Origin: Hemiscyllium ocellatum
Lineage: Eukaryota
NCBI RefSeq assembly: GCF_020745735.1
Contig: NW_026867486.1
Location: 62,001-126,000, forward strand
DNA length: 64,000 nucleotides
Reading direction: 5' to 3'
This document shows, one piece after another, positions 15,925 through 62,100 of the stretch. Position 1 is the first letter of the stretch. Every line of letters starts with the position of its first letter. A program made the position numbers and the translations under genes. The notes beneath the pieces were generated by a model. It was given only the letters and a program-made list of their open reading frames with translations, was not told where the DNA came from and searched no databases.

Positions 15925-16255
15925 TGACTTTTCCCCAGTGTAGGGGTGAAGTTCAGAACTAGAGAGCAGAGGTGTAGGGTGAGAGCAGAAAGATATAAAA
16001 GGTACCTAAGGGACAACTTTTCCATGCAGACGGTGGGGTGGTGTGTGTATGGAATGAGCTGCCAGAGGAAGTGGTGGAGGCTGGTACAATTACAGCACTT
16101 AAAAGGATCTGGGTGGGTATATGAATAGGAAGGGTTTAGAGGCATATGAGCCAAGTGCTGGCAAATGGGACGAGATTAATTTAGGATATCTGGTCAGCAT
16201 GGACGGGTTGGACCAAAGGTGTCTGTTTCCGTGCTGTACAACTCTGACGACTCTA
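15925..16255 (+). mobile_element. CR1 3' end
   Basis: gtatggaatgagctgccagaggaagtgg motif followed by the CR1 3' UTR. Confidence 0.85.
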
Positions 16256-16557
16256 AATAATAAAAAGTATAAGTTGACAAATAACAAACGATATCCATGT
16301 TAACAAGGCTTAGCTCACCACATGCTTTACTAACCATTCTCCACAGATCCTATCCCTGCAATGACTGAGGAACAGATGCTGGTGCATCATCTCCTCCACT
16401 AGTATTTACACACTAGTCTAAGGAATTGCACAAGTAACAGTGAGGGGTAAACAGCACAAGCGCCAGTAAAAGCAGATGGAAAGTGAGTGTAAAATGTGAC
16501 TATGACAGGACAGGCCCCACATTCCTTCCCCTCCGTCCCCCCCACAACCTGCCTCAC

Positions 16558-16809
16558 CTTTCACCTCCCGGGCCCAGTACCTTCCAGGTGGCCCCATAGT
16601 TGACACAGGGGCCGCCCCACGACCAGTAGAACTCCACCACCCAGGCGGCCGACCAGTTCCCAACAGGTCCTTAACCCCATCCGCCTCCAGAATGGTCACC
16701 GGCTCCTGCCTGCTGTACAGCCGGCCGGTGTGGGCCGTGACACAGCAGCTGCGCCAGGAAGGCGGCGGTGACCAGTGACGGGGGTCTGCCCCGGGCCGCA
16801 CGGCGCCAT
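16558..16809 (-). pseudogene. QSOX-family sulfhydryl oxidase exon 1, disabled (copy 1)
   Basis: Signal-peptide-like [56 protein letters not shown], then donor AAG|GTGAGG. Frameshifted. Confidence 0.85.
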
Positions 16810-18412
16810 TTTCCTAACGGCCGCCGCTTCCCCGCTCGAGCGACTTCTCCTCCCAACCGCCTTCACCCCCGCGTGACGTCTGCACGGGGGATGGGCGGGG
16901 CCGGGGGAGCCTCACCGTCACCAAGCAACAGCCACCTCGCGCTACAACTGCTCATTCACAAAAACAAACTCTCCTGTCTCGCTCTGCAGCTGCAGGGGGG
17001 ACACTGCCACGTTTCGAGGAGCCCTGTCTACATTGGGAAAGCTCACGGCTCCATTTAAACAGATATTCCGACATCGAATACAACGATGTTAACTTTCAAC
17101 TGCGTTCAGGGAACATGTATTTTGCTCTGAGTAAGTCTATTGAGTTTAACTGCAGCATGGCTGTAGTTTTAAACTTGTTTGCTTTCCTGAACAGCTAGGT
17201 TTAAATGTTTTATTCGTTAGAAGAACCAAAATTAGTGATAGTTCACATATCCACCCTGAAATGGGGTGGGTAACTGGATCGAGTGGGTAGGCGCCATACT
17301 AAGTTTAACTTTGGGGACAGCCTTTGAGCTGCATATGAACAAACTGCTTACATGTTGCACTTATCGACTGCTAAATATCGGCTCTTGTTATCTTAACACT
17401 TAGCCTTCTGATTGGACATTGCAAAGGTTCACCTCCCGCCCACACCCCGCCAGCACCCTTCCCAAGGGTCAGACCCTCCCTCTCTCCAGGCACACAGTCT
17501 GAATAATTGACGAAGCAAAATTCACTGTCAAATCCCATCAACATGGAAGATCCCAGCCCACCCTACCTCCCACTCTGTACCCAACCCATCCAAAAACCAC
17601 AAAACATCATCTCATCTTTAAAAAACAAAAGAAAAACTGGACCGCATCAAAACGTTCAACAACGGTCAACGCTATGACTGTTACACAACACTTTACGGAG
17701 CTACATTTCAACTCGAGTTCGTTTGCAACCCCTCATGAGAGTTCACATTAAAAGCTCATTGTACCAAATCAACGGCATGCCACAGCTCTCTGGAATTCAG
17801 CGGAATTCTTCCTGGTATCCCTCATGTTTTCTGGTGTTTTTGAGAAAGGAGACCCTCCCGTTAGCTTCGCCTTCAGATCTCCTTGGCTACGCCCAAAGTT
17901 TCGGCTGATCAGTTCAAGCACAGGGTCGCAGCCTTTTCTTGCTAAGCTCAGCTGGCTTAAACGTTAGCAACGCCTCTGGTTCCCGTTGGGATTTACGCTC
18001 CCGAGCGCAGACCTGGCCCGCAGCCTGTAGTCCCACAGTTCCTGCTGACTGCAAACTGCCCTTCTGTCAGCAAAAATACAAACACGACGGGGACAGTGTT
18101 CATTTCGCTATTCTCAATGTCAACTCTGACCCCACGAAAGGGTCTCTTTTCAGGGGCGGGCATGTCAATTGCCTACTTGGGGTTTGGTGAAATGTCTCAA
18201 CAAGTGTTTCCGTTTGTCTATATTTACAAGAATTCTAACCCCAACTAGACATTTACATGTAAAATCTAAGAATTATGCAACGTGACACATGAAAGCATGA
18301 TGAGGAGCATCTCCTGTGTCCTCTCTCAGCTCAGAGAAGACTTAAACCCCGCTCCCCCCTGTAACATTCCTCCAGGTGACAAAAGGAACTTAACGCAGGC
18401 GGATTACAAGGG

Positions 18413-21212: not shown

Positions 21213-21225
21213 NNNNNNNNNNNNN
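21213..21225. other. Assembly gap (13 N)
   Basis: Run of n. The paralogous copies contain ~130-150 bp at this point (63767-63897; ~41178-41328). Confidence 0.99.
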
Positions 21226-26201: not shown

Positions 26202-26526
26202 TGTCATGTATTTCCAGTCATACCCGTTACAGGACAGGAGAATACTGGGCTCAATGCTGACTCTGTAGATGAATCTAGTCAGACTCATTCCTCTCTATAT
26301 CCAGAGAGTCCTGTAAGTGTATTCCGCTATAGGGTCCCTCCAGTCTCACTTGGGTATTGAGTGACTCCACTACAGTCATCCTCAGAGCGAGCATGTTCTA
26401 GGTCTTGTTACCAAAGCAAAGTTCTTGCTCTGATTCTCTTTCTCCACCCCCCCCACATCTTGGTCTGTCAATATGGTAGAAAGAGAGGCGGGGGGGGCAG
26501 ATAACTAGGTTAGCAAACTGCATGAG

Positions 26527-26850
26527 GGTGGCATGGTGGCTCAGTAGGTAGCACCGATGCCTCATAGTGCCAGGGACCTGGGTTCAATTCCAGCCTCGGG
26601 CGACTCTCCGTGTGGGTTTCCCCCGAGTGCGCCGGTTTCCTCCCACAGTCCAACCTTGTGCAGGTGAGGGTGGGTTGGCCATGCTAAATTGCCCAGAGTG
26701 TTCAGGGATGTGTAGCTTAGGTGCACGTGTCAGGGGTAAATATAGGGGAATGGGTCTGGGTGGGATACTCATCACAGGGTCGGTCTGGACTTGTTGGGTC
26801 GGTATGGACTTGTTGGGCCAAAGGGCCTGTTTCCACACTGTAGGGGTTCT
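26527..26850 (+). mobile_element. HE1 SINE (mirror ~34985-35290)
   Basis: ggtggcatggtggctcagt..ggttcaattcc head and gggcctgtttccacactgtagg tail. Confidence 0.9.
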
Positions 26851-27058
26851 AATTCACTTTTCTTGGAGCTAGATCTGCCAAATGTCAGGAATCAGAAAAA
26901 TTGGGAGGGAGCGTATTAGGTACGGCAGTAGGGAGAGTGTGGGGGATGGAGACTCACAGATTTTGGGTTATGGGCGTGGAATGAATATTCCGTGAAATCG
27001 ATCTGTTAAACTCTGAGATTCTACGTGATACTGACAGCGATGACTTTCTAATTGACAG

Positions 27059-27675
27059 GCTTTCACAGGAGGATTTACCTGCATATCTTGAACTAATTGC
27101 CTCAGCCAGCTTGACTCATTGGGACTGGAATTTTATCGATCTTTTGAGTGGAGAAGGAGGATTGTCCCGCCTGCTTCCAGAGATCTGACTGGTAAAGCAC
27201 TGAGATGCCGCTGTTCGAGGGTGGAGGGAGCTTTACCGGAGCGGAGAGTTAGCCAGCCGGCCCCCCGCAGCAGAGTGGGACGTCAGAGGGAGCGTCGAAC
27301 CTGGAGGGAGCCCGCGCCGTGGGGAAACCGTGGAAGTGTGGGGAATGCGGGAAGGGGTTTCGAGTCCCCTCTGAGCTGGAGATCCACCGGCGCGGTCACA
27401 CCGGGGACAGGCCGTTCTCCTGCCCCGAGTCCGGCAAGGCCTTCATTGGGTCCTCCAAGCTGCTGAGGCACCGGCGGGTCCACACCGGGGACAGGCCGTA
27501 CCCCTGCCCCGAGTGTGGCAAGGCCCTTCACCCAGCTGTCCCACCTGCAGACGCACCGGCGCCTCCACACACCAGGGAGAGGCCTCTCACCTGCCCCGGG
27601 GGCGGCAAGGCCTTCAATCGATCGCCGACCCTGCGGACGCACAGGCGCCTTCCCAACGTGATCGCACGGAGTTGA
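27059..27675 (+). pseudogene. C2H2 zinc-finger exon, 4 degenerate fingers
   Basis: Acceptor gatgactttctaattgacag at ~27057. [13 protein letters not shown]... with the ATG changed to GTG, Cys lost in two fingers, and a frameshift. Confidence 0.85.
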
Positions 27676-28244
27676 AGTCTGCAGCGAATCCCACCCAGGA
27701 CTGGGGGGGATCGTGCCCCGTGGGGGGATTGTGCCCCGTTCGAAGACAGTGGGTGAAGCGGGAAGGGAGCGAGGCTTCCTTTCTGCCAGACTGGCCGCTC
27801 TCGCTCCCTTTGCTTCCCGTGGGACCGATGCTGTTTGAGGCTGGGACTGCACGTTCCCCGGGCCAAAGATCTGCAGGAGCTGAGGAAGTGCACTCCTTTC
27901 ACACCGGATGGTAAATCATGTTTGTCCCATCTATTTCAGTCTTAAATACCCTCCGTGACCTGGCCTCCCAGCCTCCTGTGGCAGTGAATTCCACAGATTC
28001 CCCACTCTCTGTCTGAAGAGGTTTCTCCTTATCTCCGTTCTAAAAGGGCTAAGGCTGTGCCCTCGGCTCCTGGTCTCTCCTACCAATGGAAACATCTTCC
28101 CAATGGCCACAGATAGATCAAAGTCAAATACAATAGCCTCTATTCCATTGAGTGTCCAGCACATTTTATAACACTTTGTAAAATCAGGAGGGCCATTGAT
28201 GAGGTGAGTGGCAGGTGTCTTTTCCCGATAGAATAAAGAATATT

Positions 28245-30797
28245 CCAGCACAGGAACAGGCCCTTCGGCCCTCCAAGCCTACACCGATCCAGATCCTCTA
28301 TCTAAACCTGCTGCCTATTTTCTCAGGATCTGTATCCCTCTGCTCCCTGCCCTTTCATGTATCTGTTGAGATACATCTTAAATGACACCATCGTTCCCGT
28401 CCCTACCATCTCCGCTGGCAACACATTCCAGGTACCCAGCACCCTCTGCGTAAAGAACTTTCCATACATATCTTAAATCTTTCCCCTCTCACTTTGAACT
28501 CATGACCCCAGGTAACTGAGTCCTCCACTCTGGGGAAAAACATTTCTTGCTTTCCACCCTGTCATGATTTTGTTGGCCTCAATCTGGTCCCCTCTCAACC
28601 TCCGTCTTTCCAATGAAAATAATCCTGATCTATTCAACCTCTCTTCATAGTTAGCATCCTCCATACCAGGTAACATCCTGGTGAACCTCCTGTGCACCCT
28701 CTCCAAAGCATCCACATCCATTTGGTAATGTGGCGACCAGAACTGTACGTGGTATTCCAAATCTGGCCGAAACAAAGTCTCGTATAACTGTAACATGACC
28801 TGCCAACTCTTGTACTCAATACTCTGTCCGATGAAGGAAAGTGTGCCATATGCCGCCTTGACCACTCTACTGACCTGCATTGCCATCTTCAGGGAACAAT
28901 GGGCCTGAACACCCAGATCTCTCTCTACATCAGTCTTCCCCAGGACTTTTCCATTTACTGTATAGTTCGCTCTAGAATTGGATCTTCCAAAATGCATCAC
29001 CTCACATTTGTCCGGATTGAACTCCATCTGCCATTTCTCTGCCCAACTCTCCAGTCTATTCTCCATTCTGCTGTATTCTCTGACAGTCCTCTTCACTATC
29101 TGCTACTCCACCAATCTTAGTGTCAACTGCAAACTTGCTAATGAGGCAACCTACACCTTCCTCCAAATCATTTAGATATATCACAAACAGCAGTGTTCCC
29201 AGCACGGAGCCCTGTGGAACACCACTGGTCACCGTCTCAGTTTTGAGAAACTCCCTTCCAATACTACTCCCTGTCTCCTGTTTCCCAACCAGTTCTCTAT
29301 CCATCTAGCTAGAATACCCTGGACCCCATGTGATTTCACCTTTTCCATCAGCCTACCGTGGGGAACCTTGTCAAATGCCCAAGTAAAGTCCATGTCTATG
29401 ACATCTGCAGCCTTTCCCTCATCAATCAATTTTGTCATTTCCTTGTAGAATTGTATTGAGTTGCTAAGACATGACCTTCCCTGAACAAAACCATGCTGCC
29501 TATCACTCATAAGCTCATTTTCTTCCAAATGTAAACAGATCTTATCCCTCAGTATCTTCTCCAGCAGCTTCCCTACCACTGACATCCAGCTCACAGGTCT
29601 GTAATTACCTGGATTATCCCTGCGACCCTTCTGAAACAAGGGGAAAACATTATCAATTCTCCAGTCCTCTGGGACCTCACCTGTGTTCAAGGAAGCTGCA
29701 AAGATATCTGTTAAGGCCCAAGCTATTTCCTCTCTCGCTTCCCTCAGTAACCTGGGATAGATCCCATCAGGACCTGGGGACTTTGACCACCTTAATGCCT
29801 TTTTAGAATACACATCACTTCCTCCTCCTTATGCCGACTTGCCCTAGAGTATTCAAAGATCTATCCCTAACGTCAACATCCACCATGTCCCTCTCCTCGG
29901 TGAATCCTGACACAAAGTACTCATTAAGAATCTTGCCCATTTTCTCTGACTCCACACACATCTTTCCTCCTTCGTCCTTGAGTGGGCCCACCCTTTCTCT
30001 AGTTACCCTCTTGCTCCTTCTATATGAATAAAAGGCTTTGGGGTTGTCCTTAATCTTGCTCGCTAAGGATATCTCATCGCCCCTTTTAACCCTCTTAATT
30101 CCTCATTTTTAGATTGGAAGAATATCGGGAAAGTAGGACCAAAGCTTTGTCTGTCTTCAGTCGCCTAGACCTTATGTATGCTTCCTTTTTCCTCTCAGCA
30201 AGTCTCACAATTTCACCTGTCATCCATGGTTCCCTAATCTTGCCAATTCCATCCCTCATTTTCACAGAGACATCTCTCTCCTGAACTCGAATCAATTCTC
30301 TTTAAGAGCCTCCCAAATATCGAATATGGATTTTCCTTCAAAAAGCTGCTCCCAATCCACACTTCCCCAGCTCCTGCTGAATTTGGGGATAGTTGGCCTT
30401 TCCCCAATAAGCACTCTTCCTTTCGGACCACTCTCGTCTTTGTCCATGAGTATTCTAAACCTTACGGAATTGTGATCCCTATCCCCAACGTAATCCCCAC
30501 CTGAAACTTCACCCACCTGGCCGGGTTCATTCCCCAACACCAGGTCCAATATGGCCCCTTCCCGAGTTGAACTATTTACATACTACTCTGGAAACCCTCC
30601 TGGATTCTCCTTACAAATTCTGCTCCTCTAACAGTAAGTGAATCCCAGTCAATGTTGGGAAAATTAAAATCTCCTCTCACCACCACCTATCCTACATCTT
30701 TCCATGATCTGTTGGCATATTTGTACCTCAATCTTACGCTCACTATTGTAGTATAACCCCAACATTGTTACTGCACCCTTCGTATTTCTGAGCTCTG
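28245..30797 (-). mobile_element. CR1 LINE ORF2 (endonuclease 3' part, RT, 3' UTR), degenerate
   Basis: KSPGPDGIYPRLLRE, GNYRPVS, QHGFVQGRSCL, SGVPQGSVLG, WAEKWQMEFNPDKC. Confidence 0.93.
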
Positions 30798-32300
30798 CTG
30801 AAAATGTGTTGCTGGTTAAAGCACAGCAGGTTAGGCAGCATCTAAGGAATAGGAAATTCGACGTTGAGCATAAGCCCTTCATCAGGAATGAGGCGAGTTT
30901 GCCAAGCAGGCTAAGATAAAAGGTAGGGAGGAGGGACTTGGGGGAGGGGCGATGGAGATGTGATAAGTGGAAGGAGGTCAAGGTGAGGGTGATAGGCCGG
31001 AGTGGGGTGGGGGCGGAGAGGTCAGGAAGGAGATTGCAGGTTAGGAGGGCGGTGCTGAGTTGAGGGAACCGACTGAGACAAGGTGGGGGGAGGGGAAATG
31101 AGGAAACTGGAGAAATCCGAGTTCATTCCTTGTGGTTGGAGGGTTCCCATCCTCCTCCAGCCGTCGTGTTGTTATGTTCTGCCGGTGCAGGAGTCCAAGG
31201 ACCTGCATGTCCTCGGTGGAGTGGGAGGGAGAGTTAAAGTGTTGAGCCACGGGGTGGTTGGGTTGGTTGGTCCGGGCGTCCCAGAGGTGTTCTCTGAAGC
31301 GTTCAGCAAGTAAGCGGCCTGTCTCCCCAATATAGAGGAGGCCACATCGGGTGCAGCGGATGCAATAGATGATGTGTGTGGAGGTACAGGTGAACTTGTG
31401 GCGGATATGGAAGGATCCCTTGGGGCCTTGGAGGGAAGTGAGTGTGGAAGTGTGGGCGCAAGTTTTACATTTCCTGCGGTTGCAGGGGAAGGTGCCGGGA
31501 GTGGAGGTTGGGTTGGTGGGGGGTGTGGACCTGACGAGGGAGTCACGAAGGGAGTGGTCCTTGCGGAACGCTGATAGGGGAGGGGAGGGAAATATATCCC
31601 TGGTGGTGGGGTCCGTTTGGAGGTGGCGGAAATGACGGCGGATGATAGGTTGTATGCGGAGGTTGGTGGGGTGGTAGGTGAGAACCAGTGGGGTTCTGTC
31701 TTGGTGGCGGTTGGAGGAGCGGGGCTCAAGGGCGGAGGAGCGGGAAGTGGAGGAGATGCGGTGGAGGGCATCGTCAATCACGTCTGGGGGGAAATCTATG
31801 GTCCTTGAAGAAGGAGGCCATCTGGGCTGTGCGGTGTTGGAACTGGTCCTCCTGGGAGCAGATGCGGCGGAGACGAAGGAATTGGGAATATGGGATGGAG
31901 TTTTTACAGGGGGCAGGGTGGGAGGAGGTGTAGTCCAGGTAGCTGTGGGAGTCAGTCGGTTTATAGTAGATGTCTGTGTTGAGTCGGTCGCCCGAGATAG
32001 AGATGGAAAGGTCTAGGAAGGGGAGGGAGGAGTCTGAGACAGTCCAGGTGAATTTGAGGTCGGGATGGAAGGTGTTAGTAAAGTTGATGAACTGTTCAAT
32101 CTCCTCGTGGGAGCACGAGGCAGCGCCGATACAGTCATCGATGTAGCGGAGGAAAAGGTGGGGGGTGGTGCCAGTGTAGTTGCGGAAGATGGACTGTTCC
32201 ACATATCCTACGAAGAGGCAGGCATAGCTGGGGCCCATGTGGGTGCCCATGGCAACTCCTTTAGTTTGGAGGAAGTGGGAGGATTGAAAAGAGAAGTTCT
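30797..32300 (-). mobile_element. Young 5'-truncated Penelope-like element (RT C-terminus, GIY-YIG, terminal repeat)
   Basis: MGPSYACLFVGYVE, LRYIDD, YYKPTDSHSYLDY, IIYCIRCTRCGLLYIGETGR. Only a few lesions. Confidence 0.95.
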
Positions 32301-33725
32301 TCGATACACGGAAGATAACAAATGTTCATCAAATTGATTCCTGAGAGGAGAGGATTCATGGATCAGGAGGGATCGAGTCGATTGGCAATGAATTCAATAG
32401 GTTTGAACACAATGATGGGGAATCGCATGGGAACCGATAAAATTCCAGGAGGGTTGGGTTCAGATTTTTGGGACATTGGGGCCAGTGCTGGGGGTGGAGG
32501 GACTATTACAAATCAGATGAGCTACACCCGGGCCAGACTGGAACCAATGTCCTTGGGGGTGCTTTTGCTAACGCTGCTGGGGAGGGTTTAAACTAATGTG
32601 GCGGGGGATGGGAAACAAATGAGGAGGTTCCTGGTCAGGAAGGAGGTAGTAACTAAAGCCTGTAAGGAGCGAGATAATAAAGTCAGTGTGACAAAGGGGA
32701 AGAGTCACAGGGAACAGATGATGAACGCAAAGGGACAGGTGGTCTGAGGTGCATTTGTTTTAATGCAATAAGTGTAGTAGGTAAGGCAGCTGAACTTAGG
32801 GCTTGGAGTCGTACCTGGGAGGATGATATTGCTAATACTGAGACTTGGTTGAGGAAAGAACAAGATTGGCAAGTAAATATCCCAGGATATCGATGCTTCA
32901 GATGGGATAGAGAGGGAGGTAAAAGAGGTGAAGGAGTGGTATTACTGGTCAGAGAAGCTATCACAGCTGTGCTGAAGGAATGCACTACGAAGGACTCGAG
33001 CAGTGAGGTAATATGGGAAAAGTCCTGGGGAAAACTGATGTAGAGAGAGATCTGTGTGTTCAGGCCCATTGTTCCCTGAAGATGGCAATGCAGGTCAGTA
33101 GAGTGGTCAAGGCGGCATATGGCACACTTTCCTTCATCGGACAGAGTATTGTGTACAAGAGTTGGCAGGTCATGTTACAGTTATACAAGACTTTGTTTCG
33201 GCCAGATTTGGAATACCACGTACAGTTCTGGTCGCCACATTACCAAATGGATGTGGATGCTTTGGAGAGGGTGCACAGGAGGTTCACCAGGATGTACCTG
33301 GTATGGAGGATGCTAACTATGAAGAGAGGTTGAATAGATCAGGATTATTTTCATTGGAAAGACGGAGGTTGAGGAGGGACCTGATTGAGGCCAACAAAAT
33401 CATGAGAGGTATAGACAGGGTGGATAGCAAGAAATGTTTTTCCCCAGAGTGGAGGACTCAGTTACCTGGGGTCATGAGTTCAAAGTGAGAGGGGAAAGAT
33501 TTAAGATATGTATGGAAAGTTCTTTACGCTGAGGGTGCTGGGTACCCGGAATGTGTTGCCAGCGGAGATGGTCGGGACGGGAACAATGGCGTCATTTAAG
33601 ATGTATCTCAACAGATACCTGAAAGGGCAGGGAGCAGAGGGATACAGATCCTGAGAAAATAGGCAGCAGGTTTAGATAGAGGATCTGGATCGGTGTAGGC
33701 TTGGAGGGCCGAAGGGCCTGTTCCT
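32301..33725 (+). mobile_element. CR1 5' region (ORF1 end and endonuclease start) fused directly to the RT 3' end
   Basis: LRCICFNA and TETWL..IPGYRCFRWDREGGKRGEGVVLLVRE, then a jump at ~33017 to KVLGKTDVERDL. Confidence 0.88.
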
Positions 33726-36460: not shown

Positions 36461-38380
36461 TGAATACATAACATGGCTACAACACTATGATATAACTAGA
36501 AATAATTATAAATCAAATTTATACAGTCGTAAATAAATACATATTGCATAGTAACACTATGATATATCCCTGTCCAGTATGACTTTTACTGTTCAGTTAA
36601 ACGAAACTTGAAAGGGTTCAGAAAATGTTTACAAAGATGTTGCCAGGGTTTGAGCTATAGGGAGTGGCTAAATAAGCTGGGGCTGTTTTCCCTGGAGCAT
36701 CGGAGGCTGAGGGGTGACCTTATTGAGGTTTATAAAATGATGAGGGGCATGGATAGGGTGAATAGACAAGGTCTTTTCCCTGGGGTGGGAGAGTCCAGAA
36801 CTAGAGGTGAGAGGGGAAAAGACATAAAAAGGACCTAAGGGGCAACTTTGTCAGTCAGAGGGTGGTGCGTGTATGGAATGAGCTGCCAGAGGAAGTGGTG
36901 GAGGCTGGGACAATTGCAACATTTAAAAGGCATCTGGATGGGAATATGAATGGGAAGGGTTTGGAGGGACGTGCTGGCACGTTGGACTAGATAAATTTTG
37001 GCTATGTGCTCGGCATGCACCAGTTGCACATAGGGTCTCTTTGTGTGCTATACATCTGTATGACTCTCAATGCTGTCCAGGTGAGTCAGTGATGTTATAA
37101 CAACAACACTGGACCAGCAATCCAGAGGCCCCAGGCAAATAATCTGGGCTCATGGGTTCAAATACCAGTAAAAACAAACCTTGGGGAAATTAAATTTATT
37201 TTTTTAAAATCTGAATTGAAAACTAGTCTCAGTCATTGAGAGAATGAAACTTTTCTGAAAACCCATTTGAATCAATAACGCTCTTCAGGGAAGGAAACCC
37301 GCTAGCATTAACTTGGTGCTGCCTGCATATGATGGCTCACGTGCTTGACTTTTAAAATGCCCCCTAAAGTCTGGCAATCCTCTTGTCTGAAGGGCAGTTA
37401 GGGACAAAAACATTGTTGGCCTTGCCAAAAAAAAAGCCCACATTCCATGAAGGAGTTTTTCTCGAATGTGACTTCACATCTGCGAATGGGTCACATCAGA
37501 ACATCCAGACAAATAAGCACCAAAATGTCTGGTGCTGCAAGAGTACAGCAGGTCAGCCAGCATCTGAGGAGCAGGAGGTTTGATGTTTTTGGCATAACCC
37601 CTTGATTAGGAATGTGGGGTGGGCCCAAAGGGACTGAGAGATAAATGGGAGGGAGGTGGGACTGGGGGAAGGGAGCTGAGAATGCTATGGGTAGATGAAA
37701 GCGGGGGAAGAAGGTGACAGGTCAGAGAGGAGGGTGGAGCAGATAGATGGGAAGGCAGATGGACAGGTGGGACAGTTCAAAAGAACAGTCCCAAGTTCGA
37801 GGGTTGTATCTGGGATTGGGCTGGGGGGTTGGGGGGGGGGGTGTCGGAATGAGGAAACTGGTGAAATCAATATTGATCCTGTATGGTTGGAGGGTCCCAA
37901 TGCAGAGGCATTCTTCCTCCAGGTATCAGGTGGCCTAGGACCCTGCAACCACATGGCATCAACATCGATTTCACCAGTTTCCTCACATTCCCTCCCCCCT
38001 CCCACCCCAGCTCCAACCCTCCAACTCAGCACCACCCTCTTGAACTGTCCCACCTGTCCATCTTCCTTCCCACCAATCTGCTCCACCCTGTCGCCATCAC
38101 CCCCCACAACCTGCATCTACCTTACCCCCAGCCCCACTCCCACCTTCCTATTTATCTCTCAGCACCTTTTCCACCCCCCCCCACCCCCCTCCGCAATTCC
38201 TGATGAAGGACACGAGAGAGACACAGACACAGAGGGACAGAGACAGCGATCTAGACCAATGCATCCAGCATATGCACCTTTCCTGAGTTCACCTCCTTTC
38301 ACTTCACTTCCTACAAACCAACAGTTTAATCCCAAAATGAGAAAAGAAATGGAATAGGAGGGGTGAGAAGAGAGGGTGCT

Positions 38381-38856
38381 GTACTCACAGAGGTTGGTGC
38401 AGTCTGGGGTAACACTCAATCTTCATTCAGAGAGAGAGAGAGAGAGAGAGCAGCAGGAGCTCATGCTCCAACTTCCGCATTCAGACAATGAGGGGATGCT
38501 CTGATTGGTAGGAGGACCAGCCTTCCTTCCGGTCCTCCAAAGCTCCCCATTGGTCCTGCCTCCCCGTGTCGAGCTGAAGGGAGGGGCGCGTTGGGGTTGG
38601 TGGAGGAGAGAGGTCACGTGGGCGTCACAAAGACCAGCACCGCCGCGTGACGCACGGCGCGGTGAACCAATGGGAAAGGCTGGAACGCCGCACGGGCGGG
38701 CGCTCATTCCAATCAACGCGCGGCCTTTGTGACGACGGCGGTCCCTCGATTCACGTGACCGGTTGCTCCTGCACATGCGCCGTTACAGGGGGGCGGTTAA
38801 GGGGAGCTGATGTTGTGTTGGTCTGGAGGGTCCCTGTGTCCAGGAAGAGGTGAGTG
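38381..38856. promoter_or_regulatory. Putative bidirectional CpG promoter with divergent first exons (arm A')
   Basis: CACGTG at 38615 and 38752, four CCAAT/ATTGG boxes, NRF1-like site at 38770, ETS site at ~38471. Donors GAG|GTGAGT at 38850 (plus) and GTGAGTAC at 38388 (minus). Confidence 0.72.
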
Positions 38857-51589: not shown

Positions 51590-51883
51590 TTACTTACAGT
51601 GTGGAAACAGGCCCTTCGGCCCAACAAGTCCACACCGACCCGCCGAAGCGCAACCCACCCATACCCCTACATTTACCCCTTACCTAACACTACGGGCAAT
51701 TTAGCATGGCCAATTCACCTGACCCACACATCTTTGGACTGTGGGAGGAAAGCGGAGCACCCGGAGGAAACCCACACAGACACAGGGAGAACGTGCAAAC
51801 TTCACACAGTCAGTCGCCTGAGTCTGACTGTGAACCCGGGTCTCAGGCGCTGTGAGGCAGCAGTGCTAACCACCGTGCCGCCC
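51590..51883 (-). mobile_element. HE1 SINE, near full length
   Basis: Reverse complement of gggcggcacggtggttagcactgctgcctcacagc ... gggcctgtttccacactgtaag. Confidence 0.92.
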
Positions 51884-53106
51884 ATGTTGTGTGCATGAGG
51901 GTTTTTTTGTGGTTTATGTGTTGGATGCAGGTACAGTAATCACATTTAAAGTGGAAGGCAAGAAAATAGTTTTAAGACCACGACAGAACAGTTACGGTCA
52001 GACAGCACAGAAACGGACCCTTCAGTCCAACTATTCCATGCTGACTATATTCTCAAACTAAACTAGTGCCACTTGCCAGTGTTTAGCCCATATACCTCCA
52101 CACCTTCCCTATTCATGTACTTATCCACATGTCTTTTAAACGTTGCATCTGAACATGCATTCACCACATCCTCTTTACATTCACTCAATACATGAAACAT
52201 ACTGTTTATAAACAAACTTTTCCTGATCTGTCCATTCCATGGATTCATTCTCTTTCCTTTCAGTTGCTGTAAGTCATAAATTGAAGCCCAGAATGAAATA
52301 AATGGAAAAGGAGTTGTGAAGAGAGTACCTTACTCACAGATGGTTGGCAGAGTAAGGAGGGTGCAGTCTGGAGCAAACCCGAAATGTCGATTTTCCTGCT
52401 CCTCGGACGCTGCCTGACCGGCAGTACTTTGCCAGCACCACTCTAATCTTGACCCTGATCTCCAGCATCTGCAGTTCTCACTTTCTCCTGTAAGAAATCA
52501 GCAGTTTTAAACCAAAAATCTGTTGCAGTTTAAAGCTCTCATTGAGAGTCTGAGCTCAGTGTGAAGTTCAGGTAATCTTTATTGTGACCCAACTTTGTTT
52601 CAGCTTCAGAATCTCCCAGCAGAAAGGCGTAGAAAAAGTAGCAACTTTTTAAAAACAGCTCAAGGTCAAAGTGCAACCCTCACTTTCTTCATTATTGGTC
52701 ACCACTGAGTTGTCCCTTTGTAATTGGATCCTTGATATCGCCTTAACCTGGAGGAAGTATTGCCTCACTCAGCAATTTCAACCTGTATCCAAGTAAGTTG
52801 GATGAGCAGCGTAGAGTCAACCAGACTATTGTGGGTCTGGAGTCACGTGTAGGCCAGACCTCGTAAAGGATGCAGCTGGGACGACTGCTCTAATAACCGC
52901 TCAAGTCTTCCCTAAAAAAGAACTGAGTGAATCAGATGGGGGTTTTCTTCCACCCCCATCCCACCGACAATGGTTTCACCATTAGATTCTGAACTCCAAA
53001 TTTCTGACCAAATTCCAATTCCGCCATCTGTTGTGGGAATCGAACTCGGGAGTCACTGGAACTGGGTTGATAGTCCAGTTGGTAAAGGCACTCGGCCGTC
53101 TTTCTT

Positions 53107-53801
53107 TCAATCCCCCTGCAATGCCACCTGATCCCGCTGGTAGGTCAGCAAGGAGGTGGCCTGGGTAAAGGCCTTCCCGCACTCGGGGCAACTTAAGGGC
53201 CTCTCCCCCATGTGGATCAACTGGTGGATCCGAAAGTTGGAGGAATCGCTGAAGCCCTTCCCGCAGTCAGGGCAGGGGAACGGCCTCTCCCCAGTGTGAC
53301 TGCGCCAATGAGTCTCCAGGGCAGACGGGAAACAAGCCTTTCCCACAGTCGCCACACTTCCATGGTTTCTCCACGGGGCGGGATTCCTCGGGTTTCTCCA
53401 CGGCCGAAGCTTCAGCCGCACACAAACGCATGTGGAGCTTCTCTCCACCATGAATTCCTCTTTCCAAACCGTATAGCTGTTACACGCTCCTCACTCAGTG
53501 CATTACAACTGTAGGGTCTCTCATCCAGTCCCACTGACGCTGAAAACGTACCCAAATAGGAACCAAACAGCTTTGCTCCTCACAGAATCATAGTTGCAAA
53601 CTGTTGCGGTCCCGATGGATTGGATTGAATGACTGTCAGACATGGATGTCAAAGTAAGGACTGCAGATGCTGGAGTGTCAGAATCAGTAAGTGCAGTGCT
53701 GGAAAAGCACAGCAGGTCAGGCAGCATCCGAGGAGCAGGAGAGTCGACGTTTTGGGCATAAGGCCTTCATCTGTTGATTTTGAAACTTCCATCCTCAGAT
53801 C
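53107..53801 (-). pseudogene. C2H2 zinc-finger exon, 3 fingers, frameshifted
   Basis: [13 protein letters not shown] / [27 protein letters not shown]... Acceptor gacagtgatgacttttgtaatc..ttcag at 53802-53803, matching the other ZNF acceptors. Short Penelope insert at ~53650-53770. Confidence 0.85.
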
Positions 53802-54324
53802 CTGAAATGTAAAAAGAGATTACAAAAGTCATCACTGTCAGTGCAGAGTAGAAATTCTGAACAAGGAATTCTGCGGAATATTTTCTTTTGTTATTCCACA
53901 AAATTGAAAGCACCATCCCACTCTTTCTCCCCCTGTCTTCTCACTCTGATCTAACTAATTCCCCTGAAGATGCTGATTCAGGATCTTCCAGGGGCAGAAA
54001 GGCAAAAATGTCAAGACTGACATCTCTCTGAATTTTGGATAACTCCACCTGAAAGTTAATATCTTTCACAACATTGGGATACTGCTGAGAGGTGAGGAAG
54101 TCTGATTTTTGGAAGCCATAAAAAAATAATGAGTTTGTGCCAATCCCTTCCCTTCAGAGAATCCCCAGAGCGGTGAAAGCAGGCCACTCAGCCCCACAAA
54201 TCCACCTCTGAAGGGTAACAGATCCACACCTATTCCCCTACCTCTATTGCTCTACATTTACCCGCTGATTAATGCACCTAACCTGCACATCTTTGGGCAC
54301 GGTCAATACATCCTCACCTGGACA

Positions 54325-54810
54325 AGTGAAAAGTCACACCACCAGTTGAGTATTCAACAGGTTTATTTGGAAGCACTCGCTTTCAGAGCGCTGATCCTTC
54401 AGGTGGTTGTGGAGAATAAGATCATAAGACACAATTTATAGAAAAACATTATAGTGTCCTGCCACCAAAATGATATATTGAACAAACCTGGATTGTCAAG
54501 TCTTTCATCTTTTAGACTGGGTTGCAGCTATCATTCACATGTAAATCCCAGACCTTCTTGCAAGGCGCCATTTCAAGATAACTCGAGGTTTTATAGCAAA
54601 ATGTGACATCTCAGTTCACACAATGCATTAAAGGTGTGAGGTCAGAGTCTGTCTGTGTCCCAGTCTTGAGTCAGACTGGTTCTACTTCCAAAGTGGAATT
54701 TACAAAATATTACATGGATTGACTGCTTACAGATTGTGTATTTTTTGAGCAAAATAGAATGTGTCTGCAAATATCATTCTGCAAATACAAATTTAACCCC
54801 ATGGACTTGT
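54325..54810 (-). mobile_element. Penelope-type terminal repeat, third family (related to ~49080-49235 and 22622-22720)
   Basis: caacaggtttatttggaagcact.gctttc.gagcgctg motif with a degenerate hammerhead. Confidence 0.6.
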
Positions 54811-55049
54811 TATGTGCGTCTGTGCATGAGAGAGAGAAAAAGTCAATGTCCATGCTGTATAGCTCTATGCCAATTTGATAACAGATGCTTTAGTCCTGTT
54901 GATGTAAATGTTGTTGTATGGTGTCCCATTTGAATTCCTCAAATAGGACACCATACCAATCCTTGGGAGAGCCCTATTTTGGGTGGGGAGGGGGAGGGGG
55001 GGATCAAAGCTTCAACAGAAATCCAGCAGAGCTGAGAACAGACCAACAT

Positions 55050-56760
55050 CCACATGCCTTTTAAATGTTGTAATTGTGCCAGTCTCCACCACTTCCTCTG
55101 GCAGTTCGTGCCACACATGCACCACCCTCTGTGTGAAAAGGTTGCCCCTCAGACCCCTGTTAAATCATTCTGCTCTCACCTCAAACATACGCCTTCTAGT
55201 TTTCTTGGACTCCCCTACCCTGGGGAAAAGACCTTAGGTTTCCCCCCCTATCCATGCCCATTACAAAGGTCTATAAATTTACCCCTCAGCCTCTGATGCT
55301 CCATGGAAAATGTCCCTGGCCTATTCAGCCTCTCCCTATAGCTCAAATCTTTTCTGACCCCTTTCAAAGTTTCATAACATCTTTCCTACAGCAGGGATAC
55401 CAGAACTGAACGCAGTATTCCAAAATTGGCTTAACCAACATCCTGGACAGCCACAACATAACCTCCCAACTCATCTACTCGATGCTCTGACCAATAAAGG
55501 CCATCCTACCAAATGCCTCATTCACTATCCTGTCTACCTGAGACTCCACTTTCAAGGAACTATGGAACCTGCACTCCAAGGTCTCTTTGTTCTGCAACAC
55601 TCCCCTTAACTGTGTCAGTCCTGCCTGGATTGCTTGACCAAAATGCAACAACTCACATTTCTCAAAATTTAATTCCATCTACCACACTTTGGCCCATCCG
55701 ATCAATTCTAATTTATAGCTAACTCACTTTTCTCTTTTATTCTCTAGAAGCTGAAAATCTCCATCCCACACACTCTCCCTCCAGTCTCAGTTTACTGAAC
55801 CTAATCCCTGCTGTACCTCATCCTGAAGGGTCTGGTTCATGCTGATTAATAGGCCCACACTCGGGAGGGGGCGGGGGTGGGTCTAAATGAAACCTACATA
55901 ATCCTGAACAGCCCAGAGTGGACGTTGTGAAGATGTTTCCATTGGTAGGACAGACTCAGACCAGACGGCACAGACTTAGAGTAAAGGGAAGTCCTTTTAG
56001 AAAGGAGAAACTTCTTCAGCCAGAGAGCGGTGAATCTGTGGAATCTATTTCCATAGAAGGCTGTGGAGGTCAGGTCACTGGGGATATTTAAAACTGAGAC
56101 AGGTTCTTGAGTATCAAGGGGATCGAGGGTTACGGGGAGAATGGGGTTGAGAAACCTAGCAGCCACGATTGAATGGGGTGATTAGACCTGATGGACTGAA
56201 TGGCCTAATTTCTGCTCCTCTGACTTTGGGCCTCTTGCTGTCCTGGACACAGAGCAAGAGAGTTGGGAGCAAGACTAGGCCATTCGGTCTTTCGAGTCAG
56301 CACCAGCATTGAACAATTCATAACTGAATATGAATATACCTACAGCTAGGTGAATAGGCTGGGACTTTTTTCACTGGAACACATGAGGTTGAGAGGTGAC
56401 TTTAAAAGTGGTTCATAAAATCATGAGGAGGGTAGATGAGGTGAACCGCAGGTGTCCTTTCCCTAGGATGGGGGTTTCAAGATTAGGGAGCAAATGAAGA
56501 AGGTGAGTGGGGAAAGATTTTCAAAAGACTGGAATAGTGCCTTTTTTGATTCCACACACAAACTACTCTCAATGTCCAGACACGGTGGTGGATGTAGGTA
56601 CAGTAACAAGGTTTAAAAGACATTTGGATAAGTACGTGAATAGGAAAGGTTCAGAGGGATATGGGCCAAATACACACAGGTGGGACTAGTTTAGTTTGTG
56701 AACACAGTCAGCACGGTCTAGTTGGACTGAAGGGTCTGTTTCTGTGTTGTCTGACTCTGG
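55050..56760. mobile_element. CR1 fragments in both orientations
   Basis: CR1 RT and 3'-end motifs. Paralogous to 13400-14560. Confidence 0.78.
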
Positions 56761-59179
56761 AACTGTTCTAAACTGGTCTTAAAACCATTTTCTTGCCTTC
56801 CTCCATAAACATCCACTTCTTTCTTTCAAAAATCAGATTAACTCAGCCTTAAATTTATTCAAATGACCCCCTAACTGCAGCATGACATCCCCATTTCTGA
56901 ACTCAATTCCTCTTGCTAACACACCACTTGCCTTGCTCATTGCCTGCTGCACCTGTCTGACAACTGGCACAGAAGGACGCTGATGCCCCTCTCAACATCC
57001 ACGCATCATTCCTGATGAAGGGCTTGTGCCCGAAACTTCGACTGTCCTACTGCTAGGATGCACCTTGAATGAATCTACCATCCCTACCTCTGCTGGCAAT
57101 GAGTTCCAGGCACCTATCACCCTGAGTAATGTACTTTCTGTGTGCATCTCCAACATGATGTCCCAACTCCTGAACTCAGCATGTGAACAATGAAGGCAAG
57201 TGTGCTGAACACCTTCTTCACCCCTGTCTACCAGTGATGTAACTTTCAAGAACAATGAACCTGAACACCTCCAGGTCTCTGTTCTCCAACATGACCCAGG
57301 GCCCTACCATTACCTGTTCAAGTCTTGCCCTCCTTTATTTTAGCAAAATGCAACCCCTCACTTATATCCATACCCCTTTCATACACACACGCTCTCGCTC
57401 AGACACACACACACCACCCCCTCAAAACTCTCACCCTCTCACAGACTCATACTCCATCACAATCACACTTTATCAAGCAGGCACACATGCAAATACACAC
57501 TCACAGCGCACAGTCTTATACACAAACTCACACACACTTCCCTGAAAGGAGTTTCCCTGAAACGTCAATTTTCCTGCTCCTCAGATGCTGCCTGACTTGG
57601 TGCAGCAACACACGCTCGATCCTAAACTTATTACCCTCTAGTTCTGGACTGCCCCATCCAAAGGAAAATACCACGTCTATTTACCATATCCATGCCCCTC
57701 ATGATGATATACAAGTGTATAAGGTCACTCCTCAGACTCTGGCAAGCTACGGAAAACAGTCCCAACCTGAACTTCTGTCTCTCCTCACCCGGGTAACCAA
57801 GACACATACCTGCTGTCCCAAAGTCTGCTCCCTCTCTGGATTCACTCCAGTTGCTACAAGTGAGCTTGCTCCGTTATTCATTAAAATCATGGCTGAGCTA
57901 TCCATCGTCTCAGCTTCTCCTCCCTGCACTGTCACAAGGAACCCCTTTATTCCCCAACCAGACCAAATCCCACCCAACTGTGTCTTGAATATACTTAATG
58001 AAGCTGCCTCTATTGCTTCCTTGGCCAAAAGATTGCCGAGATTTTGATGAAGGGCTTTTGCCCGAAACGTCGATTTTCCTGCTGTCCAGATGCTGCCTGA
58101 CCTGCTGTGCTTTTTAAGCACCACTCTAATCTAGACTATTCCATAGATTCACGACCCTCTGGGAAAAGCAGTTCCTCCTCATCTCTGTCTAAAAGCTACT
58201 CCCTCTAACCTTGACGCCTTGTCTCACCCACCAGAAATTACTGGACAGGTTAGGGCTTCATCCCCACAGTGCAATGACATTGGGAAGATGTTTCCATTGG
58301 TAGGAGAGACTAGTACTAGAGGTCACAGCTTTAAGAATAAAGGGAAGACCTTTAGGAACAGAGATAAGCAATGTCTCCTTTTCTGCCGACAGCGAGGAGC
58401 ATGGACAATGTACTGGTGACACCAGCGAGCAGGTGCGCTGTTGTCACACCGAGGAGCAGGCACAATGTGCTCTGTGGCGATGCTGGTGTTATTGACAGAT
58501 GTTAAATGTTCAAATGCCAAGAGGAGAAATAAAGGGTAGAGCCACAGTTCTTTTTCCCCATGTGGCTCAACATTTTATAGCTTTTGTCTGGCTGCTCAAC
58601 TTTTTTTTTTAAATGTCTTTTCCCCAGAATAGGGGTGAGGTTCACAACTACAGGGCATAGGTTTAGGGTGAGACCAGAAAGATATTAAAAGGTACCCATG
58701 GGGCAACTTTTCCATGCAGAGGATTGTGAACGTATGGAATGAGCTGCGAGAGGAAGTAATGGAGGCTGTATTTAACAGGCATCTGGATGGGTATATGACT
58801 AGGAAGGGTTAAGAGGGATATGAACCAAGTGCTGACAAATAGGACTAGATTAATTTAGGATATCTGGTTGGCATGGGCAGGTAGGCCAAATGGGTGTGTT
58901 CACGTGCTGTACATCTTTATGACTCTATATAATAAAAAAGTATATTTTTCCAAATACCAAACTATCTCCATGTTAACAAGGCTTAGTTCACCACATACTT
59001 TACTAACCATTCTCAACAGGTCCTACCCCTTGAATGACTAAGAACATACAATGCTGGTGCATAATCTTCTTCACTAGTATTTACACACTACCCTCAACAA
59101 TTGCACAAGTAACAGCAAAGGGTAAACAGCACAAGGATTAAAAAACACAGTGAGGGGTAAACAGCACAAGGACTAAAAC

Positions 59180-62100
59180 AGTGAGGGGTAAACAGCACTA
59201 GGGCCAGTAAAAGCAGATGGAAAGTCAGTGTAAAATGTGACTATGACAGGACAGGCCCCACATTCCTTCCCCCCGTCCCCCCACAACCTGCCTCACCTTT
59301 CACCTCCCGGGCCCAGTACCTTCCAGGTGGCCCCATAGTTGACACAGGGGCCGCCCCACGACCAGTAGAACTCCACCACCCAGGCGGCCGACCAGTTCCC
59401 AAGCAGGTCCTTAACCCCATCCGCCTCCAGAATGGTCACCGGCTCCTGCCTGCTGTACAGCCGGCCGGTGTGGCCGTGACACAGCAGCTGCGCCAGGAAG
59501 GCGGCGGTGACCAGTGACGGGGGTCTGCCCCGGGCCGCACGGCGCCATTTTCCTAACGGCCGCCGCTTCCCCGCTCGAGCGACTTCTCCTCCCAACCGCC
59601 TTCGCCCCCGCGTGACGTCTGCACGGGGGGATGGGCGGGGCCGGGGGAGCCTCACCGTCACCAAGCAACAGCCACCTCGCGCTACAACTGTTCATTCACA
59701 AAAACAAACTCTCCTGTCTCGCTCTGCAGCTGCAGGGGGGACACTGCCACGTTTCGAGGAGCCCTGTCTACATTGGGAAAGCTCACGGCTCCATTTAAAC
59801 AGATATTCCCACATCTAATACAACGATGTTAACTTTCAACTGCGTTCAGGGAACATGTATTTTGCTCTAAGTCTATTGAGTTTAACTGCAGCATGGCTGT
59901 AGTTTTAAACTTGTTTGCTTTCCTGAACAGCTAGGTTTAAATGTTTTATTCATTAGAAGAACCAAAATTAGTGATAGTTCACATATCCACCCTGAAATGG
60001 GGTGGGTAACTGGATTGAGTGGGTAGGCGCCCTGCTAAGTTTAACTTTGGGGACAGCCTTTGAGCTGCATATGAACAAACTGCTTACATGTTGCACTTAT
60101 CGACTGCTAAATATCGGCTCTTGTTATCTTAACACTTAGCCTTCTGATTGGACATTGCAAAGGTTCACCTCCCGCCCACACCCCGCCAGCACCCTTCCCA
60201 AGGGTCAGACCCTCCCTCTCTCCAGGCACACAGTCTGAATAATTGACGAAGCAAAATTCACTGTCAAATCCCATCAACATGGAAGATCCCAGCCCACCCT
60301 ACCTCCCACTCTGTACCCAACCCATCCAAAAACCACAAAACATCATCTCATCTTTAAAATACAAAAGAAAAACTGGACCGCATCAAAACGTTCAACAACG
60401 GTCAACGCTATGACTGTTACACACTTTACGGAGCTACATTTCAACTTGAGTTCGTTTGCACTCCCTCATGAGAGTTCACATTAAAAGCTCATTGTACCAA
60501 ATCAACAGCATGCCACAGCTCTCTGGAATTCAGCGGAATTCTTCCTGGTATCCCTCATGTTTTCTGGTTTTTTTGAGAAAGGAGACCCTCCCGTGAGCTT
60601 CGCCTTCAGATCTCCTTGGCTACGCCCAAAGTTTCGGCTGATCAGTTCAAGCACAGGGTCGCAGCCTTTTCTTGCTAAGCTCAGCTGGCGTAAACGTTAG
60701 CAACGCCTCTGGTTCCCGTTGGGATTTACGCTCCCGAGCGCAGACCTGGCCCGCAGCCTGTAGTCCCACAGTGCCTGCTGACTGCAAACTGCCCTTCTGT
60801 CAGCAAAAATACAAACACGACGGGGACAGTGTTCATTTCGCTATTCTCAATGTCAACTCTGACCCCACGAAAGGTTCTCTTTTCAGGGGCGGGCATGTCA
60901 ATTGCCTACTTGGGGGTTGGTGAAATGTCTCAACAAGTCTTTCGGTTTGTCTATATTTACAAGAATTCGAACCCCAACTAGACATTTACATGTAAAATCT
61001 AAGAATTATACAACGTGACACATGAAAGCATGATGAGGAGCATCTCCTGTGTCCTCTCTCAGCTCAGAGAAGACTTAAACCCCGCTCCCCCCTGTAACAT
61101 TCATCCAGGTGACAAAAGGATCTTAACGCAGGCGGATTATAAGGGGTTGCTCAGTGGTCACAGCGCCAAGGGACCCGGGTTCAATTCCAGCCTCAGGGGC
61201 GACTGTCCCTATGGAGTTTGCACGTTTCCAGCCTGCGTCTGCGAGGGTTTTCTCCGGGTGCACCGGCTTCCTCCCACAATCCAAAGATGCGTAGGTGAGG
61301 GTGGATTGGCTATGCTAAATTACCCATAGTGCTCAGATATGTGTAGGTTAGGGTGGATTGGTCAGGCTAAATTACCCATAGTACCTAGGGATGTGTACGT
61401 GAGGGTGGATTGGCTATGCTAAATTACCCATAGTACTGTAAGGCCGGAATCTGTCCTTGCATGTTAGTTTTAGGAGGAGAGACAACAGACGCTCAATTGT
61501 TTGGCACAAGCAGGCTTTATTGCAGAATCGTAGTTGATACAGTGAATCACCATGCATTCACTGGAGAAGGCACGTTCTGCCTTCCCCTCCCAAATCTGCT
61601 CCTGATATACTCTTTGCTAAGCAGAGCTTCGCGGAGCTACTAAGCATTGTCTTATTAGGACATTTCGCGTTTGCGAGGCGTTTCCTGTTATTGAGCTCAT
61701 TTGGGCGTTGGCAGCTGAGCTGGCCACGTAAGCAACAGTTTCGATTCCCCAAACAGCAGCTATAGCTCCACCCTCCCTTGACTTATTTTATCCTAACAGT
61801 ACCCAGGGATGTGTAGGATTGGGTAATTTAGCATGGCCAATCGACCCTAACCTACACATCCCTGGGTACTATGGGTAATTTAGCATGGCCAATCCACCCT
61901 TAGTGTAGGATTGGCCAGGCTAAATTGTCCTATAGTATCCAGGGATGTGCAGGTTTGGGTGGACTGGCCGTGCTAAATTACCCATAGTGCCCAGGGATGT
62001 GTAGGCTAGGTGGGTTAGCCAATGGGAATTGCAGGGTTACAGGCAGAGGTCTGGGTGAGGGAGGGTTGGATGGGCTGAAGGGCCTGCTCCTACACTGCAT

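What the first reader, a model, noticed from the sequence alone, without database searches (positions are those of the whole stretch)
53107..59700. Possible QSOX-promoter/ZNF chimeric transcription unit
Seen: copy 3 of the QSOX exon (minus strand, donor 59296) points at a minus-strand ZNF exon with a good acceptor at 53802, 5.5 kb away. I found no other strongly CpG-rich promoter between them. Copy 1 has the paralogous intron-like region (13400-16400), which is then cut off by the ERV. Inference: the QSOX 5' end may have been exapted as a promoter and untranslated first exon for ZNF genes. That would explain lost coding features alongside a kept promoter and donor. The ATG now opens only a 45-codon ORF.
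Basis: inference. Interest (0 to 1): 0.7.

Follow-up and report, generated by a model that had tools for sequence, protein, structure and literature searches.

The report
Captured QSOX2 promoter amplified in sharks
In a carpet-shark genome the promoter and first exon of the housekeeping gene QSOX2 sit in at least 263 nearly identical copies among zinc-finger genes, likely kept alike by gene conversion; in related sharks this exon is transcribed and spliced mostly to repeat-derived exons and sometimes to zinc-finger exons, but the zinc-finger gene it faces here is broken and that particular splice is untested.

Summary
The geometry is real. A QSOX2 exon-1 copy (donor 59296) faces a ZNF exon (AG 53803-53802), with no intact promoter between them. 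That ZNF has one intact finger and a secondary acceptor. The joint 59297-53801 was not seen, and no RNA of this species could be laid.

The larger finding is the family. A 28-mer spanning the donor occurs 263 times in the genome. The copied piece (about 1.15 kb) is DNA-derived from QSOX2. Its ~600-bp promoter/exon core differs by 1-3% among copies, against ~17% in the adjoining intron and 16-19% among other ZNF promoters. Flanks are shuffled across the core, and species-specific bases are fixed in all sampled copies: the marks of concerted evolution.

In RNA of related sharks the exon is transcribed and spliced, mostly to a repeat-derived exon (homologue at 48935, behind copy 2). A minority goes to canonical ZNF acceptors (1 contig, 3 reads, 2 of 20 annotated models). 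Only 1 of 33 intact ZNF exons sampled has this promoter as its nearest one.

Verdict: an active, captured, homogenised promoter cassette that occasionally heads ZNF exons, not the general ZNF promoter.

The parts
58770..59813 (-). Copy 3 of the QSOX2 5' segment (promoter, exon 1, start of intron 1), copied as DNA
   Evidence: Aligns to parent G000:C56 from -516 to +527 of the donor
59257..59777 (-). Homogenised core (-480..+40 of the donor)
   Evidence: Diversity among 81 copies 0.001-0.046 per 40-bp window, rising to 0.14-0.26 beyond +120
59297..59590 (-). Transcribed first exon; start approximate
   Evidence: Read and contig depth concentrated here in X19, X2, X6, X9 (related species)
59411..59548 (-). 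45-codon ORF from the parental ATG (frameshifted; the parent's CGHC reads GGPC in the old frame)
59438..59439 (-). Internal donor used in relatives (GTGAGC there, GTGACC here)
   Evidence: Loose ends at 59439/59440; the relatives' base is in 1 of 81 copies of this genome
59295..59296 (-). Main splice donor, inherited from QSOX2 exon 1
58383..58384 (-). Candidate nearer acceptor (about +900 type, present in 53 of 63 units)
   Evidence: type used by models P0009 and P0012
57625..57864 (-). Remnant of the 3' end of a ZNF-type first exon and intron start; its promoter is missing
   Evidence: 72% over 241 bases to the first exon of the ZNF gene at G000:C66:807484
53107..53801 (-). Broken ZNF exon with substitute acceptor (AG 53803-53802); one intact C2H2 finger
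45429..46469 (+). Copy 2 of the QSOX2 segment (ATG 45694, last exon base 45945), facing copy 3
46856..47176 (+). Decayed copy of the usual ZNF first exon/promoter arm just behind copy 2
   Evidence: 70% to the reverse complement of 38240-38556
48935..49215 (+). Repeat-derived second exon (antisense LINE piece, AATAAA at 49194): the main splice partner of the family; 3' end inferred
   Evidence: Loose ends in X19 and X2 match its start with 1 mismatch; models P0001, P0016, P0031, P0033; antisense to the repeat at 4304-4546
16060..17073 (-). Copy 1 of the QSOX2 segment (last exon base 16558)
38250..38850 (.). Ordinary two-armed ZNF promoter, used as comparator

Best explanation
The promoter and first exon of QSOX2 were copied as DNA into a shark zinc-finger gene cluster, now stand there in at least 263 copies, and are likely kept nearly identical by gene conversion between copies, which would also explain why their flanks are shuffled. 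SHOWN: the copied piece includes promoter and intron; its core is 1-3% diverse while its own intron is about 17% diverse; upstream and downstream flank types are recombined across the core; in related sharks the exon is transcribed and spliced, mainly to a repeat-derived exon and less often to ZNF acceptors. INFERRED: the founder landed just in front of a ZNF gene's first exon, whose decayed remains follow many copies. The open CpG promoter then acts as a shared site of non-allelic exchange: conversion homogenises about 600 bp, and crossovers attach the promoter to new downstream sequence. Most products are non-coding, because the old ATG opens a 45-codon frame that stops 114 bases before the junction. 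At this locus any QSOX-ZNF transcript would be a non-coding pseudogene RNA, since the ZNF exon is broken. Rarely a shuffle puts the promoter in front of an intact ZNF (G000:C66:769783).
For: Copy number: 263 exact 28-mers, 368 candidates. One parent exon at 100% among 150 scored matches; homology -620..+540 including intron. Non-CpG diversity 0.015-0.032 in the core against 0.170 in the intron, 81 copies, with a gradient on both sides. Control promoters: median pairwise 0.192 (n=35) and 0.158 (n=10) against 0.011 for the core (n=21). Shuffling in 64 copies: 130 of 240 pairs with near-identical upstream flanks have old downstream flanks, 91 of 182 the reverse; core median 0.8% in 777 pairs with both flanks old. 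A derived base at 59393 is in none of the reads covering it in four runs of relatives, and their base is in 0 of 81 copies here; annotated models show species-specific motifs. The former coding part is 11% from the parent yet 2.4% among copies. Splicing evidence.
Against: Conversion and crossovers are inferred from patterns; no recombination map exists here. The promoter is only 5% from the parent against 17% for the intron, so selection contributes as well. The first 63 copies were picked by an exact 28-mer and further loci by similarity, which biases towards homogeneity near the donor; 17 of the 18 copies added through a protein search also show the same donor sequence. All RNA comes from other species, three of the four runs only guessed to be RNA and held as contigs; reads cannot be assigned to copies. 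Junction counts are small. Annotated models may be partly ab initio. Flank clustering used one threshold (6%).
Confidence: 0.7

Rival explanations
1. The QSOX2 5' end has been exapted as the working promoter and untranslated first exon of protein-coding ZNF genes, and that is why it is kept.
For: Splicing onto canonical ZNF acceptors in relatives (models P0010, P0036). One intact 8-finger ZNF has the QSOX promoter as its nearest, while its 98-99% identical sibling has another promoter. ZNF first-exon remnants lie behind many copies. Long introns to more distant ZNF exons are not excluded.
Against: 1 of 33 intact ZNF exons in 864 kb. 11 of 13 units with a near ZNF acceptor are the broken type. 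None of 20 annotated copy models contains a finger. Three ATGs in exon 1 and several more precede the ZNF frame. Most junction reads go elsewhere.
Confidence: 0.12
2. Each copy is held by purifying selection because the transcripts are a functional long non-coding RNA family, or because transcription towards or behind ZNF genes regulates them in cis.
For: Promoter 5% from the parent against 17% for the intron. High exon-shaped depth in X2. The same second exon is used across species. 24 of 63 units have antisense ZNF motifs within 9.4 kb, and 12 of 22 promoters lie 3.7-6.8 kb behind a same-strand ZNF exon.
Against: Independent selection would not fix new species-specific bases in all copies with old flanks. 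The former coding part drifted about neutrally from the parent (11%). Second exons vary and are repeat-derived.
Confidence: 0.12
3. The copies are inert passengers of segmental duplications, and the similarity reflects recent duplication, low mutation in CpG islands or assembly polishing.
For: Whole units are duplicated at 92-100%; the contigs are repeat-rich.
Against: The core stays at 0.8% when both flanks are old. The effect holds at non-CpG sites. Other CpG promoters of the cluster differ by 16-19%. Reads of relatives are spliced and also homogeneous.
Confidence: 0.06

Closest known systems
Primate core duplicons, e.g. LCR16a/NPIP (PMC12790995, passages read)
   Same: An over-represented transcribed core with lineage-specific flanks, frequent interlocus gene conversion, and copies at rearrangement sites.
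   Different: Here the core is only ~600 bp, is a promoter and exon captured from another gene, has lost its coding frame, and has hundreds of copies in a shark ZNF cluster.
Young mouse KRAB-ZFP clusters expanded by ERV-mediated non-allelic recombination (PMC12575710, abstract and passages read)
   Same: A repeated element inside a ZNF cluster is multiplied by segmental duplication and is proposed as the recombination substrate.
   Different: The element here is a host-gene promoter, not an ERV, and is far more homogeneous than its flanks. That paper found meiotic hotspots rather excluded from the clusters.
Promoter/CpG-island-directed recombination in vertebrates without a complete PRDM9 (PMC5519329, passages read)
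   Same: It offers a route by which a CpG promoter becomes an exchange site; the paper reports SSXRD missing in some cartilaginous fish, and no SSXRD match was found here (weak).
   Different: Described for allelic recombination. Non-allelic homogenisation of one promoter family, with neighbouring promoters left diverse, was not seen in the passages read.
Chimeric genes with a captured promoter, and pseudogene passengers in human ZNF clusters such as BNIP3 copies in the ZNF91 cluster (recalled; search found no paper)
   Same: A fragment of an unrelated gene is co-amplified within a ZNF cluster and can supply a first exon.
   Different: Those passengers are, as recalled, processed and decaying; this one is DNA-derived, transcribed and homogenised.

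Membership tests
Core duplicon | Core over-represented within duplication blocks, with variable flanks | tested here: met
   263 copies; 18 upstream and 21 downstream flank types in 64 copies
Core duplicon | Transcribed | tested here: met
   In related species; not tested in this species
Core duplicon | Encodes a rapidly evolving protein family | tested here: not met
   45-codon frame in 49 of 63 copies; active-site cysteine lost
Core duplicon | Seeds duplications / lies at breakpoints in populations | not testable with these tools
   Needs several haplotypes; flank switching across the core is consistent
Concertedly evolving repeat family | Low within-species diversity with species-specific fixed differences | tested here: met
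   for relatives only expressed or annotated copies were seen
Concertedly evolving repeat family | Homogeneous tract bounded by older flanks | tested here: met
Chimeric protein-coding gene with exapted promoter (this locus) | Spliced transcript joining the captured exon to the coding exon | tested here: inconclusive
   Not among 15 of 308 joints listed, runs from other species; shown for ZNF-type exons elsewhere
Chimeric protein-coding gene with exapted promoter (this locus) | Intact downstream ORF | tested here: not met
   One finger, 114 aa
Chimeric protein-coding gene with exapted promoter (this locus) | Own promoter of the downstream gene absent | tested here: met
   Only a first-exon remnant remains
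Processed pseudogene | Exons joined, introns and promoter absent | tested here: not met
   Promoter and ~540 bases of intron 1 are present
Transposable element | Copies inserted at unrelated sites with defined ends | tested here: not met
   The core continues in register into older parent-derived intron in the copies aligned; listed copies are confined to a set of ZNF-cluster contigs. Terminal repeats were not searched.

The most novel reading that the evidence does not exclude
A promoter captured from a housekeeping gene has become the recombination hub of a shark zinc-finger cluster. Because it is open chromatin where meiotic breaks fall, its hundreds of copies convert each other, shuffle and expand the cluster, and now and then hand a ready-made promoter to an intact ZNF gene: a core duplicon made of nothing but a promoter.
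Probability: 0.3. Interest if true: 0.82.

Novelty: new variant of a known kind. Interest (0 to 1): 0.62.

Why it matters
How zinc-finger clusters expand and rewire is studied almost only in mammals, where transposons are the proposed recombination substrate. Here a ~600-bp captured promoter, homogenised across hundreds of copies with shuffled flanks, gives a sharply bounded candidate in sharks. It makes three questions testable: whether promoter-directed breaks drive non-allelic conversion, what minimal feature makes a core duplicon, and how often new ZNF expression arises by promoter swap. It also shows that the 'sulfhydryl oxidase-like' proteins annotated at such copies are probably non-coding transcripts.

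Tried and rejected
Rfam scan of the window: no match. Pfam on the exon frame: none; identity rests.

Run search listed no holder on record as RNA (no RNA holder listed). X20 gave 0 reads, no test. Laying the whole 7-kb stretch was swamped by repeats, so the missing joint is not evidence of absence.

Idea that copy 1 splices past the ERV to the intact 13-finger ZNF at G000:C73:54949, 24 kb away: dropped as the default, because another promoter lies 6.8 kb upstream of that ZNF. L090 (14-finger ZNF behind a copy) has its own promoter at about +4.8 kb. Two loose ends (X19 at 59297, X6 at 59294) matched none of the 63 units. X19's 9 reads at 59325 were left out of the junction count because they do not end at a donor.

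CpG hypomutability as the cause of homogeneity: rejected. A bias to C>G changes at CpG sites: 4 of 41 majority differences, not pursued. PRDM9 status: 33 PR-domain matches not assigned to genes and no SSXRD match; inconclusive. A neutral divergence figure between the genera was not found (PMC10587355, passages), so selection on the exon between species could not be scored. The acceptor-region control crashed and was not repeated. Copies outside three annotated species were not found among proteins, which is weak evidence.

Full report
OBSERVATION. The window is G000:C73:62001-126000. A protein that NCBI names as from Hemiscyllium ocellatum matches the genome at 100% over the exon scored, so this is most likely the epaulette shark. 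The minus-strand exon ending at 59297 translates to a QSOX N-terminus (PDB QSOX1, E 7.9e-11). Its best full-length relatives are shark QSOX2 proteins at 65-76%, and the parent exon lies at G000:C56:59060547-59060795. The donor is the parent's donor. A frameshift leaves 45 codons from the old ATG, in 49 of 63 units examined, and the CGHC motif reads GGPC. The exon has one intact finger, and its acceptor is a substitute for the deleted canonical one.

WHAT IT IS. An exact 28-mer across the donor occurs 263 times, with 0 for the control pattern (100 places listed). The listed places are on ZNF-rich contigs, some as facing pairs about 13 kb apart like copies 2 and 3. The copied segment runs from about -620 to +540 of the donor and includes promoter and intron, so it was copied as DNA. 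Behind it, about 40 of 63 units carry a decayed copy of a common ZNF first exon within 4.5 kb, counted from the listing. Copy 3 carries the end of another ZNF first-exon type at 57625-57864. I infer that the founder landed in front of a ZNF gene. Annotated models of the copies exist in three species of this shark family.

HOMOGENISATION. In 81 copies (63 chosen by the 28-mer, 18 added from a protein search) non-CpG diversity is 0.032 in the promoter, 0.015 around the start, 0.024 in the former coding part and 0.021 in the first 100 intron bases. It is 0.170 at +150..+400. Diversity rises on both sides, also in the 39 copies with parent-like upstream DNA. Other promoters in the same 864 kb differ by a median 0.192 (n=35) and 0.158 (n=10), against 0.011 for the core (n=21). 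In 64 copies with both flanks, 130 of 240 pairs with upstream flanks under 5% apart have downstream flanks over 10% apart, and 91 of 182 show the reverse. The core differs by a median 0.8% in the 777 pairs where both flanks are old. At 59393 the reads of relatives and the parent have C, and 0 of 81 copies here do; the relatives' bases at 59510 and 59435 occur in 0 and 1 of 81. Annotated models read GNWS, GNSS and GNPS in the three species. Divergence from the parent is 5% in the promoter, 11% in the former coding part and 17% in the intron. This pattern fits conversion among copies plus some constraint on the promoter. The conversion itself is inferred.

TRANSCRIPTION. No listed run was this species by its alleles; the four laid share bases with bamboo-shark models. 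Depth is concentrated on 59297-~59590 in all four, and is strand-biased in the raw-read run X19 as expected for a minus-strand RNA. In X19, 13 reads leave the donor into an exon that matches 48935 behind copy 2 with one mismatch, and 5 give an unresolved consensus. From an internal donor at 59440, 5 reads go to the same exon and 3 to the canonical ZNF exon start. X2 contigs give the 48935-type exon from both donors. One X6 contig joins 59297 to a canonical ZNF exon start. Two loose-end rows were not shown. The 48935 exon is antisense to a LINE piece and is followed by AATAAA at 49194. Of 20 annotated copy models, 4 continue into that exon, 2 into the +900 region, 2 into ZNF exon starts (P0010, P0036) and the rest into other or very short tails; none has a finger. 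The joint 59297-53801 was not among the 15 joints listed of 308, which is no test.

IS IT THE ZNF PROMOTER? Within 9.4 kb, 13 of 63 units have a ZNF acceptor, 14 the 48935-type acceptor and 53 the +900-type acceptor. Eleven of the 13 are the broken type found here; one has its own promoter. In four contiguous regions (864 kb) I found 41 ZNF exons, 33 with six or more fingers in one ORF. The nearest same-strand promoter is a QSOX copy for 1 of the 33. That gene (G000:C66:769783, 8 fingers) is 98-99% identical to a sibling from 1.1 kb before its acceptor onward, while the sibling has a different promoter 6.8 kb upstream: an apparent recent promoter swap, expression untested. Promoter types were defined by similarity searches, not by RNA, and the QSOX query missed some truncated copies (for example the one 4.3 kb before the broken exon at C85:1002170). 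More distant splicing cannot be excluded.

MECHANISM. Shown: DNA capture, amplification, a homogeneous core with shuffled flanks, transcription and alternative splicing in relatives. Inferred: the open CpG promoter is a site of non-allelic exchange; conversion homogenises it and crossovers reattach it; products are mostly non-coding, with a stop 114 bases before the junction that by the general rule would invite nonsense-mediated decay. Promoter-directed recombination is known in vertebrates without a complete PRDM9 (PMC5519329, passages). No SSXRD match was found here, a weak result for a 31-residue model, and this route would not by itself explain why the other promoters stay diverse; high copy number and initial identity may.

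COMPARISON AND NOVELTY. It works like a primate core duplicon (PMC12790995, passages) and like the recombination substrates of mouse KZFP clusters (PMC12575710, abstract and passages), but it fails the coding feature of core duplicons and is not a transposon. Searches of the held library found no description: QSOX2+shark+zinc finger 0; epaulette shark+zinc finger+genome+expansion 3, unrelated by listing, two passages of PMC12642534 read; Chiloscyllium ZNF cluster 6, unrelated by listing; concerted evolution+first exon+ZNF genes 0; QSOX2+pseudogene+duplication 3, unrelated by listing. Subscription journals and supplements were not seen. Earlier notes of this scan describe KRAB-less ZNF clusters and an inverted duplication in this genome, none on QSOX.

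VERDICT. Observation confirmed; interpretation partly supported. This locus is most likely a non-coding chimeric pseudogene unit. The family it belongs to is the real finding. Interest 0.62; new variant of a known kind.

Noticed in passing
G000:C66:762891-771000 (L075, L131): Intact 8-finger ZNF with a QSOX copy as nearest promoter; its 98-99% identical sibling at C66:679850 has another promoter. Best candidate for a real promoter swap.
   Followed up: partly
window 45400-59800: Copies 2 and 3 face each other 13.4 kb apart; pairs with about the same spacing recur on C64, C66, C67, C69 and C78, so the convergent pair is itself a repeated unit.
   Followed up: partly
four regions of C63, C66, C73, C85: 12 of 22 QSOX promoters lie 3.7-6.8 kb behind a same-strand ZNF exon, so the cassette usually follows a ZNF gene rather than precedes one.
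   Followed up: partly
G000:C85:950051 and 1009201: QSOX copies with most of exon 1 deleted: promoter and ATG run directly into intron sequence.
   Followed up: no
window 38250-38850 and 23274-23800: Two-armed ZNF promoters; at least six different promoter types head the ZNF genes of this cluster.
   Followed up: partly
window 15689-25669 vs 46837-36445; 25668-28952 vs 36142-33016: Large inverted duplications at 89-96% identity, with an assembly gap of 13 N at 21213-21225.
   Followed up: no
window 7800-10650: Broken LTR-retroelement frames (protease and RNase H matches) downstream of copy 1.
   Followed up: no
window 31041-32325 and 132-1349: Penelope-like element with a GIY-YIG match just under the cut-off; family name recalled.
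   Followed up: no
P0003, P0004: NCBI models fuse or co-label QSOX2 with the neighbouring LHX3 in two shark species, suggesting read-through transcripts at the parent locus.
   Followed up: no
G000:C116:33954506-34147345: Four tandem PR-domain matches, an unassigned PRDM duplication.
   Followed up: no
window 53651-53771: The same repeat fragment sits in the 5' part of the ZNF exons of this subfamily, just after the acceptor.
   Followed up: no
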